Positions 20,709 to 41,767 of a stretch of 64,000 nt of DNA are shown here, in pieces; position 1 is the first letter of the stretch, and every line of letters begins with the position of its first letter. Both the position numbers and the translations under genes were made by a program. The notes under the pieces were generated by a model. That model made no database searches and was not told where the DNA came from. It saw nothing but the letters and a program-made list of their open reading frames with translations. Origin of the DNA: Balanoglossus misakiensis. Its lineage: Eukaryota > Animalia > Hemichordata. The stretch covers positions 12,334,415 through 12,398,414 of the forward strand of contig CM082582.2 of NCBI GenBank assembly GCA_040954595.2, given 5' to 3'.

Positions 20709-23700
20709 ATGTCAGTAAATCTGAAAATGGATCATTTTCGCACATGTCGCATATGGGACATTTGGTTAGACCCAGAAAAAGAAACAATTGAGGAATTTAT
20801 AGAAAAAGTTACAACCAAACCATTTGATATTATACTTCAAAATGAAAGAACGTCGCTCTTTCATCCTGGAGTACTTGTCCGATTCGAAAGATACAAATGT
20901 AAGTACATACTGCCTGTCATTCTTTGTTTCTGGTGATATGTTGGCTAGCCCAGGTGCTTCTCATGAATGTAAAATCATGTTTATGGGGAACTTGTGCAAT
21001 ATATATTGCCTAAAGATTGTGTCTTTATCACTTTATCATTTGACAATACCGATATTAACATTTTCATTCTTGTATTTTTGAAGATGCTGCCTCTTTTTTC
21101 AGAAGAATACAACGTATGGCAGAAATAAAAGTCGAACCTTGCAACCAGGTAAGTCAAAATAGGTTTTTCACATGCATTTCAAAGGTATTGTATAATTTAT
21201 AGCAGAAATACAGTCATGTATATGTATTGTCAAGTTGCTGTAATTTTCGAGAACATGGCATCTTAGAAAAGCATTGAAGCTATCACACTAGTAAGGTGAA
21301 TTTTATCAGAAAGTTTAAAATATTAATGAAATATTTTTTTTTACATTTTTACAAATATTTAAAGGGGCTTTTTCGTACCCATGATGTAAATTTAAACATG
21401 CAATATTATGTCAATTGTGTTATCGTTTCTCTCGCCGTCAGGTTTTTGTGTCTTGCACAGCAGATGTTTCTCGGTGGCTACGGTGTGTTTCTGATATTTT
21501 GAGGCATTTTGCTGAACAACTAAATGGGAAGATAACGGGTTCTTATCTCATGCAGTTCGAAGGGGATATATCTGTTCTTCCAGAATTAGAACGCAAAATG
21601 TTATCTCTTTTCAATACTAGACATGGATCACAACTAAATGGTAAGTCAAACCTTGTATTAAAGAAGACTTTGGACAATAATATTGTGTACATTTGACTAT
21701 ATTCTGACTCTAATACGGTAGATCTAATTTTAGTCAGTGTTTTACACACCTTTTATAAAGAAAGACTGTGTGTGTGTGTGTGAGTATTCATGAATACTAT
21801 ACTTTTAGTTGCTTTTTGTCAAACATTGATGTTTATATGAATATACTGTATAAAGGAGTGTCTCATTTTTCTTACTAGGAAAGAATGGCTCATTGGAAAA
21901 TGTTGTTTGGCTTTGCAATGTACCAATTTCAGCTACTGCTGAGGAAGTTGAACAGCTCGTCATCAATAGCTGTGGTCGCTCAGCAAAAGTTTACCGGAAC
22001 AGCTACGACAATGAGGCACTTGCAGTATTCGATACCAAAGAAGGTAAAACTTATGAACACCAGAGCTTTAAACTTGGCTTGAAAACTCTTCTTCCTCAAT
22101 ACATAGTACACAAGTATCACCTGCTAGTACTATCTTTATAAAATATGTATTGCCTCCCCTAACGTTCTATTTATTTAGATGGTATACAAACTATTCGTCT
22201 TTAAACACAAGTACTTATTAAAATAATCTTACATGCTATATCATTTGTGTTTTGAATAGAAGCCGAAAAGCTTACTAAAATGAAGCTGTATTGGCCCAAA
22301 ATGAATCATCATCGTTTAATCATCAAGAATTGCACTCAAGAGGTACAGTAATCAATTATTACAAGCTTCATGTACACCAAATCCCAGTAATAATAATGAT
22401 GTCATCTTGGTTAAATGTTTGTACTTCTCAAAAGGCAGCACCTGAATGTGAAAAATTGAATTTTCTTTTCAGATTTTTACAGTTACGAAAGCTGCATGTG
22501 CGGAATGGATGTTGGCAGACTACTCAAAAGTGTGTTCCATGGCTAAAACTGTAAACGTTGAACCTGATTATATTTTTAAATCGACGTATACTGGGAGTTA
22601 TGCTGAACTCATACAGTTTGAAAGGTTGGTCAGACTACAGTACATCGATGAAGTCGAGAAGTCGAGTACTGATTCCAAACTTGAATCGTCTGGAAACGAC
22701 ATGGCTAGTGGTGAGATCCCTATAGATGTACAAGTGAAAGGAATTGGCGGGAAGACCAGAACAGATAACACTTCAGAGTTCCCTGGATCTTCTTTTAACA
22801 CCCAAGACTATAAGCATACAATGCCAGAGACAGCAAAGTATACAGGTAGCTTCTTGCCTAGGGATTCACATACCAGGCCTAGTTGTTTTGGAGTTACTGG
22901 AGACAACCTGCAGACGATTGGAGGTGAAACAGTAGACGTCAACACAAGTCCACCCATACAGACAAACGATGAAGGTCGCGTTAAAACAGACCGAACGTTG
23001 TCCCAAAGTGGTGGCGATTTGACTGACACGCCGTCGTTTCACCAGGATTCTGAGACTGAGACAACTGAGAGTGGCAGAGTTGAAATACGAATGGAGGAAG
23101 ACATATTAACCTTCATGCTAAAGGTGAACAAGAAGAAGATCAAGTCCATTGAAACATCAAATGGAGTAAACGTTAGACAGAAGAAAGACATCTGTGTGAT
23201 CACAATCATTACAGATCATGGCGAAGTCAAGAAGGCATCTGAGGAAATAAAAGCCTTGTACAAGACTGTTAAAGATAGTGCATGCACCATGGATATGAAG
23301 AAGTCGACGATAACAATTGCCGCATTCGGTGATATATTGGAACGTGTGAATAACGAACATTCAAACGTATTTGTCAAAAATAATCTTAATGACTTTGAGG
23401 TTATAGTGTACGGTGAAAAGGAACATGTTGATCCAGCAATAGACAAGTTAAAGACATACATTCGTGAAGAAGGAGAGAAGTACAGAAAACCTGAGGTTAC
23501 AAGCAATGATGAAGCCAGCGAGTTTCCTTCTGGTGACGCCACAAGCACAAGTGAAGTTCCAAAGTGGTTTACAGCATCGTGGCCACAGATACCCGAGGTA
23601 TCACCAACGTCAAGATCACATTCAAGCAAACACTCTACTGATCCAGCAATGGCTAAGTTAAAGACGTACAGTGATGAAGAAGAAGTGAAGAGAATAACTC

Positions 23701-40700: not shown

Positions 40701-41767
40701 CTGACAAATTTTCAGCGGACGCGTGCTATGGAAAAGTCGTCAAACAAGGTTTCCAACGGCAACATTCAGGACGCTACTCCCGCTCAGATAGCTCTGATGA
40801 TGATTATGACGATGATCGTGATGGTGATGGTGATAACGATAGCCTATCAAGCATGAACATCGCGGTGTCGAGTAGTCAAGGAGAATGCAAGATATGCACT
40901 GAAAGTGACGTCACTCTTAAAGAAATGAACTGTTGCCAACAAACCATGTGTGATCAATGTCTTGGACGTCACTTCAAGACTGATTCCAAGTGTCCGTTCT
41001 GTACGAAATTGGTTATGAAGTTGAAGGGTAACCAGCCAAAAGGAAAGATGGATCCATGGATCGACCGACACGATCATTTGCCGGGTTATGAAGGAAGTGG
41101 TACGATTGTTATAAGTTATGAGTTCCCTGATGGCAAACAGAAGGTCAGTATACTTTATGTCTGCCCTATCAGCAAACAACAGAGTATTACTTCACTGGTG
41201 ACATACTGTTAGTTCCATGACTTTCGTTTTAACTATTGACAAGCAGCTGTCTGTCTTGACCACATTTCATGGACCGGGTTTTATCCGAGCCATTAATTAA
41301 TTTTATTTTTTTCCTGCAGGAAAACCATCCCAATCCCGGTGAACCATACACCGGCACCAGAAGAAAGGTTTATCTCCCAGCAAATGAAGAAGGTCGCCAA
41401 GTTCTCAAACTTTTTGAGAGGGCGTTCAAAGAGAAGCTTCTGTTTACCATCGGCAGTTCCATTACCAGAGGGAAAGACAACATAGTGGTCTGGAATGATA
41501 TTCATCAAAAGACCAGTCGGACTGGCGGCTATTCAAAGTAATCACCTCTTCAATGATATACTAGTAGTTCTCATACCAGTATTACGTCTGCTTTTGATTT
41601 TTGTCTGTCTGTGTTTAGCCCTGACTTCTGTCACTGTACAGACCTCCGCAGATTTGTTGATGGCCAACTGATGAGGTATATGTCTTTCATTTTACAGCTA
41701 TGGTTATCCAGATCCAAAGTATCTTACACGCGTCAAAGAGGAATTGGCAGCAAAGGGAATTAAATGA
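37717..41767 (+). CDS. Gene B: DTX3L-like E3 ligase fused to a macrodomain (RRMs / polyQ-polyE tract / Macro / RING / Deltex C-terminal), about 844 aa
   Basis: Exons 37717-37885, 38188-38291, 38582-38711, 38823-39134, 39248-39570, 39785-40409, 40560-41143, 41320-41537, 41698-41767 join in frame (2535 nt); macro [70 protein letters not shown]. Confidence 0.9.
38461..39140. repeat. Right arm of near-identical inverted duplication (partner 34968-35649)
   Basis: Starts agacaatatactcaagaaatatttacatattgtctgcag, the reverse complement of 35611-35649. Confidence 0.92.

What the first reader, a model, noticed from the sequence alone, without database searches (positions are those of the whole stretch)
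20709..41767. Writer-reader-ligase cluster: a PARP flanked by two macrodomain-Deltex E3 fusion genes (PARP9/DTX3L in one chain)
Seen: genes A and B each encode a macrodomain spliced in frame to a RING and a Deltex C-terminal domain. They lie either side of a PARP14-like mono-ART, A tail-to-tail and B head-to-head. Known: in mammals the macrodomains (PARP9, PARP14) and the RING-DTC (DTX3L) are separate proteins that act together, and DTC-RING ligases can ubiquitylate ADP-ribose. Both DTCs keep the His (WND[V/I]H) and Glu (KEEL) at the positions aligned with the catalytic residues of DTX3L/DTX2. Inference: this is a self-contained invertebrate innate-immune module in which the PARP writes mono-ADP-ribose and the fused proteins read and ubiquitylate it. 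I do not know of this architecture being characterised.
Basis: partly seen in the sequence, partly recalled or inferred. Interest (0 to 1): 0.88.

Follow-up and report, generated by a model that had tools for sequence, protein, structure and literature searches.

The report
Macrodomain-Deltex ligases flanking a PARP14-like gene
Two intact ubiquitin-ligase genes that each carry an ADP-ribose-binding-type domain flank an ADP-ribose-writing gene and likely tag what it modifies; the fused design is common in invertebrates and already noted in a preprint, but here one ligase has copied its front end from the neighbouring writer.

Summary
A (+, 20709-25941, 1226 aa), P (-, 36706-27670, 1600 aa) and B (+, 37717-41767, 823 aa) splice into open frames with GT-AG introns. 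The macrodomain's last helix and strand share one exon with the RING and the DTC start, so the fusion is structural. The DTC His, Tyr and Glu are kept.

The architecture is not new: 110 of the 150 best 50%-identity clusters are Macro-RING-DTC, across several invertebrate phyla, and a 2026 preprint already says DTX3L lost a macrodomain when PARP9 arose. I found no biochemical study.

New at this locus:
(1) B's three RRMs are an inverted copy of P's 5' exons (94% identical over 685 nt, introns included), absent from B's Ptychodera orthologue.
(2) P has only the two reader-type macrodomains.
(3) A's hydrolase-type macrodomain has Asp at the catalytic Asn and B's is more degenerate, so the cluster is predicted to lack a full eraser.
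(4) The RING is a His-less CC-x4-C variant.
(5) The cluster's genes appear linked in other acorn worms.

Expression, activity and an immune role are untested.

The parts
20709..25941 (+). Gene A, 9 coding exons, 1226 aa: diverged N-terminus (no Pfam match), macrodomain, low-complexity linker, CC-x4-C RING, DTC
   Evidence: groups with Glandiceps and Saccoglossus orthologues 99/98
23961..24650 (+). Macrodomain of A (split by intron 24337-24485); PARP14/PARP9 macro-1 type; Asp at the catalytic Asn (codon 24033-24035), with His, Gly loop and Tyr kept
   Evidence: residue roles from bioRxiv 10.64898/2026.08.12.744356
24486..25312 (+). A exon 7: macrodomain tail, linker, RING and start of DTC in one open frame
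25196..25941 (+). DTC domain of A over three exons, with His, Tyr and Glu equivalent to DTX3L H707/Y719/E733
27670..36706 (-). Gene P, 21 coding exons, 1600 aa: 3 RRMs, KH region, two macrodomains (macro-2 and macro-3 type, no macro-1), WWE, ART with H-Y-M triad
   Evidence: 61% identical end to end to Ptychodera XP_070575134.1; PDB matches of that orthologue
34967..35649 (-). Left arm of the recently homogenised tract (P: end of intron 2 to exon 4)
   Evidence: 93.7% over 685 nt to 38461-39140; arms
36707..37716 (.). 1010-nt divergent intergenic region between P and B; presumed shared promoter, with a kB-like site at 36932 and GAS-like sites at 36938, 37227 and 37520
   Evidence: consensus matches only
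37717..41767 (+). Gene B, 9 coding exons, 823 aa: 3 RRMs copied from P, acidic tract, degenerate macrodomain, CC-x4-C RING, DTC; no KH region
   Evidence: orthologue Ptychodera XP_070575132.1, 59% over macro-RING-DTC, 100/100
37717..39570 (+). B exons 1-5: inverted duplicate of P exons 1-4 and the start of exon 5, with the same intron positions and phases
38461..39140 (+). Right arm of the recently homogenised tract (exon 3 95%, intron 3 96%, exon 4 92% identical to P)
40031..40717 (+). Macrodomain of B (split by intron 40410-40559); Asp, Asn and His at the Asn, His and aromatic positions of active macrodomains
40560..41143 (+). B exon 7: macrodomain tail, linker, RING and start of DTC in one open frame
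19972..20002 (.). GAS-like and palindromic kB-like sites upstream of A, about 200 nt before a splice donor at 20194 that suggests a non-coding first exon
   Evidence: inferred

Best explanation
The locus holds three intact genes, a PARP14-like enzyme and two DTX3L-like proteins with a macrodomain in the same chain, which likely form a co-induced module in which the PARP would write mono-ADP-ribose and the two neighbours are predicted to bind it and attach ubiquitin to it. Steps: (1) Shown: domains, order and catalytic residues. (2) Inferred from family: P's H-Y-M ART makes mono-ADP-ribose on protein or nucleic acid, and its two reader-type macrodomains bind but do not remove it. (3) Inferred from published mutants: A's macrodomain, with Asp for the catalytic Asn, binds ADP-ribose tightly and hydrolyses it poorly; B's lacks three of four hydrolase features and is a weak reader or inert. 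(4) Inferred: the tethered macrodomain holds the modified target while the RING positions E2~ubiquitin and the DTC His/Glu pair activates the ADP-ribose 3'-hydroxyl, giving the hybrid mark. (5) Shown in sequence: B's RRMs came from P by inverted duplication followed by a later gene conversion. Inferred: this sends B to the same nucleic acids as P, in place of the KH contact by which mammalian DTX3L binds PARP14. (6) Inferred: antiviral or inflammatory induction.
For: Open GT-AG models. Macro tail in the RING exon, and the same fused chain annotated in relatives. DTC residues and a non-Arg linchpin (Gln in A, Thr in B) as in human Deltex ligases. A model of the B orthologue folds as macro plus RING-DTC, mean pLDDT 85, RING blocks 88-96, best match 6y22. 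P's macrodomains fall with macro-2/3 (100/99), apart from macro-1. PARP9 N140D binds 4-fold tighter, with reduced protein and lost RNA hydrolysis. In Saccoglossus the P orthologue and three Macro-RING-DTC genes share a contig length of 565,002. B's copied exons 1-2 have dN/dS 0.21 at dS 0.72 against P, and B and P are equally distant from the Ptychodera PARP there (60% and 59%). Two of the 7 kB-like and 4 of the 25 GAS-like sites in the window lie in the 2 kb of presumed promoters (P 0.012 and 0.006, post hoc).
Against: No transcript, activity or induction data for this organism. A's Asn-to-Asp change is one base in an assembly that I could not check with reads. It is rare (3 of 164 public fused macrodomains), and A's orthologues keep Asn. 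PARP9 N140D retains some protein hydrolase activity. B has no KH region and A's N-terminus has no Pfam KH match, so a DTX3L-style complex with P is unsupported. The DTC binds ADP-ribose and ubiquitylates single-stranded nucleic acids without any macrodomain or PARP. The RING lacks the zinc-binding His and is below Pfam's cut-off. Clustering could follow from tandem duplication alone. Two of the three close kB/GAS pairs overlap in letters, which inflates that test.
Confidence: 0.5

Rival explanations
1. Eraser-ligase: the macro-1-type domain of A still removes ADP-ribose or the hybrid mark, so in acorn worms the hydrolase missing from the PARP sits on the Deltex partner and proofreads or turns over the mark, as PARP9 macro-1 does beside DTX3L.
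For: P and its Ptychodera and Saccoglossus orthologues lack macro-1. 63 of 106 fused relatives, including A's Glandiceps orthologue, keep Asn, His, Gly and the aromatic residue. A keeps three of four. PARP9 and PARP14 macro-1 remove the hybrid mark.
Against: A has Asp at the catalytic position, which reduced or abolished activity in PARP9 and a viral macrodomain. B lacks three features.
Confidence: 0.2
2. PARP-independent ligases: A and B ubiquitylate single-stranded nucleic acid ends or lysines through RING-DTC (B guided by its RRMs); the macrodomains are decaying and the cluster is a by-product of local duplication.
For: DTX3L RING-DTC ubiquitylates ssDNA and ssRNA, and A and B keep the Tyr needed for it. 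Fused macrodomains vary widely in their motifs. Glandiceps has at least 7 paralogues sharing one contig length.
Against: B's macrodomain is conserved with Ptychodera (56% identity) and keeps the adenine-binding Asp. Linkage to the PARP appears in two other genera.
Confidence: 0.15
3. B's five 5' exons are a separate truncated PARP copy, and the real B starts in the macro exon, as the short Ptychodera isoform does.
For: Ptychodera has a 548-aa RRM-only PARP14-like fragment and a 450-aa B isoform beginning just before the macrodomain. An in-frame Met lies at B residue 362.
Against: Only 214 nt separate exon 5 from the macro exon, with a phase-0 donor and acceptor in frame and no canonical poly(A) signal (one weak variant). 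No trace of the ancestral B N-terminus is found in the window. The copied exons are under constraint. The same RRM-RRM-RRM-Macro-RING-DTC order exists in Branchiostoma.
Confidence: 0.08
4. The His-less RING does not recruit E2, and A and B are ADP-ribose-binding scaffolds or decoys.
For: Tyr (A) or Gln (B) at the His position; sub-threshold Pfam scores.
Against: Eight Cys are present in the spacing C-x2-C-x11-C-C-x4-C-x2-C, like the RBBP6 RING. The pattern is kept in 8 of 8 acorn-worm rows and folds confidently.
Confidence: 0.07

Closest known systems
Macrodomain-bearing DTX3L orthologues of early-branching animals (Picard et al., bioRxiv 10.64898/2026.04.23.720386)
   Same: RRM and macrodomain in front of RING-DTC; proposed as the state before PARP9, with 'domain-level exchanges' with PARP14 suggested.
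   Different: The text I read gives no hemichordate cluster, no macrodomain residue analysis and no case of exon capture. Its Figure 1d and supplements were not visible and may list such species.
Human PARP9/DTX3L heterodimer and the PARP9-DTX3L-PARP15-PARP14 locus (3q21.1)
   Same: Head-to-head PARP and Deltex genes; macrodomain next to RING-DTC; H707/Y719/E733 equivalents; non-Arg linchpin.
   Different: The macrodomain is in the ligase chain; the partner ART has an active-type triad, whereas PARP9 is inactive; B has no KH docking region; two ligases; CC-x4-C RING.
PARP14 and PARP15
   Same: RRM x3, KH, macro, WWE, ART order as in PARP14; H-Y-hydrophobic triad; macro-2 and macro-3 types.
   Different: No macro-1 hydrolase. 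In that it resembles PARP15, which arose separately in mammals.
DTX1/2/4 (WWE-RING-DTC)
   Same: ADP-ribose-binding module and RING-DTC in one chain (WWE role recalled; RING-DTC structures).
   Different: Here the module is a macrodomain, suited to mono-ADP-ribose, not WWE.
RBBP6-type RING
   Same: Adjacent Cys-Cys and no His (PMC1360078 passage).
   Different: A and B lack the Asn/Ser of the RBBP6 consensus, so only a C4C4 reading is open; no shared ancestry is implied.

Membership tests
Deltex E3 ligases | C-terminal RING followed by DTC | tested here: met
   DTC above cut-off in A and B; RING recognised but below cut-off; orthologue model matches 6y22
Deltex E3 ligases | DTC His/Glu catalytic pair and pocket aromatic (H707, E733, Y719) | tested here: met
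Deltex E3 ligases | Canonical C3HC4 RING | tested here: not met
   CC-x4-C with Tyr or Gln at the His position; 16 of 110 fused relatives share it
Deltex E3 ligases | Ubiquitylation of ADP-ribose | not testable with these tools
   needs an in vitro assay
DTX3L orthologues | Groups with vertebrate DTX3L in a RING-DTC tree | tested here: inconclusive
   A and B sit in an acorn-worm clade (100/99); deeper branches are unresolved and DTX1/2/4 were not in the tree
DTX3L orthologues | N-terminal RRM and KH-like domains | tested here: inconclusive
   B has 3 RRMs (copied from P) and no KH; A's N-terminus gives no RRM or KH match
PARP14 | RRM x3, KH, WWE, ART in order | tested here: met
PARP14 | Three macrodomains including hydrolase macro-1 | tested here: not met
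   two domains, macro-2 and macro-3 type, also in the Ptychodera and Saccoglossus orthologues
Mono-ART PARPs | H-Y-hydrophobic triad instead of H-Y-E | tested here: met
   H-Y-M; Met aligns with the PARP15 Leu (on the orthologue; same motifs in P)
MacroD/macro-1 hydrolases | Catalytic Asn, His, Gly loop, aromatic lid (PARP9 N140, H145, G148, F244) | tested here: not met
   A: D,H,G,Y; B: D,N,G,H; P's two domains also fail
PARP9/DTX3L complex | Divergent gene pair | tested here: met
   P and B, 1010 nt apart
PARP9/DTX3L complex | Catalytically inactive PARP partner | tested here: not met
   P keeps His and Tyr of the triad
PARP9/DTX3L complex | Physical heterodimer and immune induction | not tested
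   no complex job was run; promoter motifs only

The most novel reading that the evidence does not exclude
This is a surviving form of the ancestral deuterostome locus: a macroPARP and macrodomain-Deltex ligases lay head-to-head beside EXOSC4-OPLAH and traded RRM and macrodomain exons. Vertebrate PARP10 (three genes from OPLAH-EXOSC4 at 8q24.3) and the PARP14/PARP9/DTX3L cluster would both descend from it. In acorn worms the eraser macrodomain sits on the ligase, and in this species it has been switched to a reader by one substitution, giving an eraser-free writer/reader-ligase unit with gene B caught in the act of exon capture.
Probability: 0.2. Interest if true: 0.75.

Novelty: new variant of a known kind. 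Interest (0 to 1): 0.45.

Why it matters
How macrodomains steer Deltex ligases to mono-ADP-ribosylated targets, and why the PARP9/DTX3L complex couples making the hybrid mark with removing it, are open questions. A and B are natural single-chain versions, and A differs from its orthologues at the one residue that separates eraser from reader, so the pair makes that question directly testable. B is a datable example of the PARP14-to-Deltex domain exchange that a recent preprint only suggests. The fused architecture as such is a widespread invertebrate family, not a discovery of this window.

Tried and rejected
No whole genome is held, so copy number elsewhere was not checked. No RNA holder was listed for 33200-41800; this is no evidence either way, and no reads were laid. 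The Atlas look-up of A's N-terminal region did not complete, and Pfam gave no RRM or KH match there. My first reading, that A is an intact eraser, used the wrong Asn (first of the motif; notebook entry 1 and the motif count). The N140-H145-G148 spacing shows it is the second, and I recounted. Assembly artefact for the P/B repeat is rejected: identity is patchy (exons 1-2 77-81%, intron 1 at shuffle level, exon 3 to exon 4 92-96%). The idea that the Ptychodera 548-aa fragment is the missing front of its B gene is rejected: that gene has its own 111-aa N-terminus, and B's N-terminus groups with P (99/99; 98/98 outside the converted tract). A single origin of fused macrodomains is not shown (44/20; 48 of 51 domains used, three poor rows dropped). 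No protein with both ART and DTC was found among 150. IRF-type sites are not enriched in the presumed promoters (0 of 3). No complex prediction was run. Earlier findings of the scan: none. Paper searches that found no study of the fusion: 0 papers; listings only, none on topic; one search found the preprint. Word look-ups for fusion/fused in six ADP-ribose/Deltex papers gave no passage on it.
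Full report
Observation. I rebuilt the three genes from the window. A (+, 20709-25941) has 9 exons and 1226 aa. B (+, 37717-41767) has 9 exons and 823 aa. P (-, 36706-27670) has 21 exons and 1600 aa. All introns are GT..AG and no frame has an internal stop. 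Pfam confirms Macro and DTC in A and B, and RRM, KH, Macro, WWE and PARP in P. The macro-to-RING join does not rest on a guessed splice: the intron falls inside the macrodomain, and its last helix and strand open the exon that also encodes the RING and the start of the DTC. Unspliced read-through would stop within the intron, and neither intron has a canonical poly(A) signal. No RNA run was listed, so splicing is inferred.

Organism and family. The closest relatives are from acorn worms (Ptychodera, Glandiceps, Saccoglossus), so the window is likely an enteropneust hemichordate. With the Ptychodera orthologue of B as query, 17 of 73 hits carry both Macro and DTC, including Lingula, Branchiostoma, Antedon, Magallana and Meloidogyne. 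Of the 150 best 50%-identity clusters (selected by likeness to a fused query, 853 hits at 1e-30 not all classified), 110 are Macro..RING-DTC by my own profiles. Named members include Xenia, Dimorphilus, Argopecten, Potamilus and Amphiura. The Atlas lists Macro+DTC clusters dominated by nematodes, molluscs and cnidarians (only the first scores above 0.9). The architecture is a broad invertebrate family.

In print. Picard et al. (bioRxiv 10.64898/2026.04.23.720386; I read the abstract, passages, sections 5 and 14 and the first part of section 10; figures and supplements not seen) write that PARP9's emergence coincides with loss of the macrodomain in DTX3L and suggest early domain-level exchanges with PARP14. 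I found no biochemical study of a fused protein (searches; passages of PMC13224862 with its section 9, PMC10810221, PMC7615817, PMC11460948, PMC11251020, PMC10221186; a blank look-up in PMC11467253). Subscription journals are largely outside this library.

Ligase parts. A and B keep the His, Tyr and Glu that match DTX3L H707, Y719 and E733 and have a non-Arg linchpin like human Deltex proteins. The RING has two adjacent Cys and no His, spaced like the RBBP6 RING (PMC1360078 passage). All 8 acorn-worm rows of the tree share this, as do 16 of 110 fused relatives, including a Branchiostoma one. A model of the B orthologue, used as a stand-in (59% identical), is confident over macro and RING-DTC with a disordered linker (pLDDT 85, pTM 0.56) and matches DTX2 RING-DTC best.

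Macrodomains. In a tree of 48 domains, P's two fall with PARP14 macro-2 and macro-3 (100/99), and all fused domains fall on the macro-1 side without forming a supported clade. The Ptychodera and Saccoglossus orthologues of P also have two, so loss of the hydrolase macro-1 is shared. A's domain is most like PARP14 and PARP9 macro-1 but has Asp at the position of PARP9 N140. Fourkiotis et al. (bioRxiv 10.64898/2026.08.12.744356; abstract and sections 10 and 11 read) report that N140D binds ADP-ribose about 4-fold tighter, with reduced protein and lost RNA hydrolysis. B has Asp, Asn, Gly, His at the four diagnostic positions. It is a local state: 63 of 106 fused relatives keep the whole hydrolase motif, and only 3 of 164 domains look like A.

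B's first five exons are an inverted copy of P's 5' end with the same intron positions. Exons 1-2 are 77-81% identical, intron 1 has decayed to shuffle level, and a 685-nt tract from intron 2 to exon 4 is 93.7% identical: an older duplication followed by a later gene conversion (inferred). B's N-terminus is 78% identical to P's but 58% to the Ptychodera PARP, and groups with P. The Ptychodera orthologue of B has an unrelated 111-aa N-terminus, of which no trace is found in the window. The capture therefore happened after the split from Ptychodera. dN/dS of 0.21 in exons 1-2 suggests the copy is used.

Conservation of the cluster. A and B belong to two separate acorn-worm subfamilies (99/98 and 98/96). 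In Saccoglossus the P orthologue, two A-type genes and one gene of B's subfamily share a contig length of 565,002. This is indirect evidence; no gene map was available.

Regulation. kB-like and GAS-like sites lie upstream of A and between P and B more often than random windows give (P 0.012 and 0.006, post hoc). These are consensus matches only.

Neighbours. An RNase PH gene (minus strand) and an oxoprolinase gene (plus strand) follow B head-to-head; I name them EXOSC4 and OPLAH from recall of the sequences. A human gene list reads PARP10, GRINA, SPATC1, OPLAH, EXOSC4 (PMC10717177 passage). This is a lead for shared ancestry of the locus with PARP10, not tested further.

Mechanism and verdict. 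Most likely P writes mono-ADP-ribose and A and B bind and ubiquitylate it (0.5). The rivals are an eraser-ligase role for A (0.2), PARP-independent ligases (0.15), a shorter B (0.08) and an inactive RING (0.07). The feature is real and the architecture is known in outline; the locus adds a recent PARP-to-Deltex exon capture, a PARP without macro-1, and a natural eraser-to-reader change. Novelty: new variant of a known kind. Interest 0.45.

Noticed in passing
window 42044-43132 (-) and 43448 onward (+): RNase PH gene (likely EXOSC4) head-to-head with an oxoprolinase gene (likely OPLAH) directly after B. In human, PARP10 lies three genes from OPLAH-EXOSC4: possible ancient synteny of a clade-3 PARP with this pair.
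   Followed up: partly
window 35718-35727 (-): ISRE/IRF-like tandem GAAA motif in P intron 2, just outside the tract shared with B.
   Followed up: no
window 39330-39530 (+): Long Glu/Gln low-complexity tract in B exon 5, expanded from the shorter acidic stretch in P exon 5 at the end of the copied region.
   Followed up: no
window 23429-23836 (+): Two short internal duplications (46 and 52 nt, 83% identical, about 200 nt apart) in A's Ser/Thr-rich linker.
   Followed up: no
window 19514-19586 (+): tRNA-Val(AAC) about 1.1 kb upstream of A's ATG.
   Followed up: no
window 55851-59876 (-): Two tandem glycosyl hydrolase family 1 genes, each with a very long exon.
   Followed up: no
window 8168-8656 (-) and 2266-3369 (-): A CUB-domain exon, and a predicted membrane protein with a Glu-Pro repeat.
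   Followed up: no
   Followed up: partly
proteins P0027, P0030, P0047, P0054 (Branchiostoma): B-box-containing proteins fused to RING-DTC, another Deltex fusion type.
   Followed up: no
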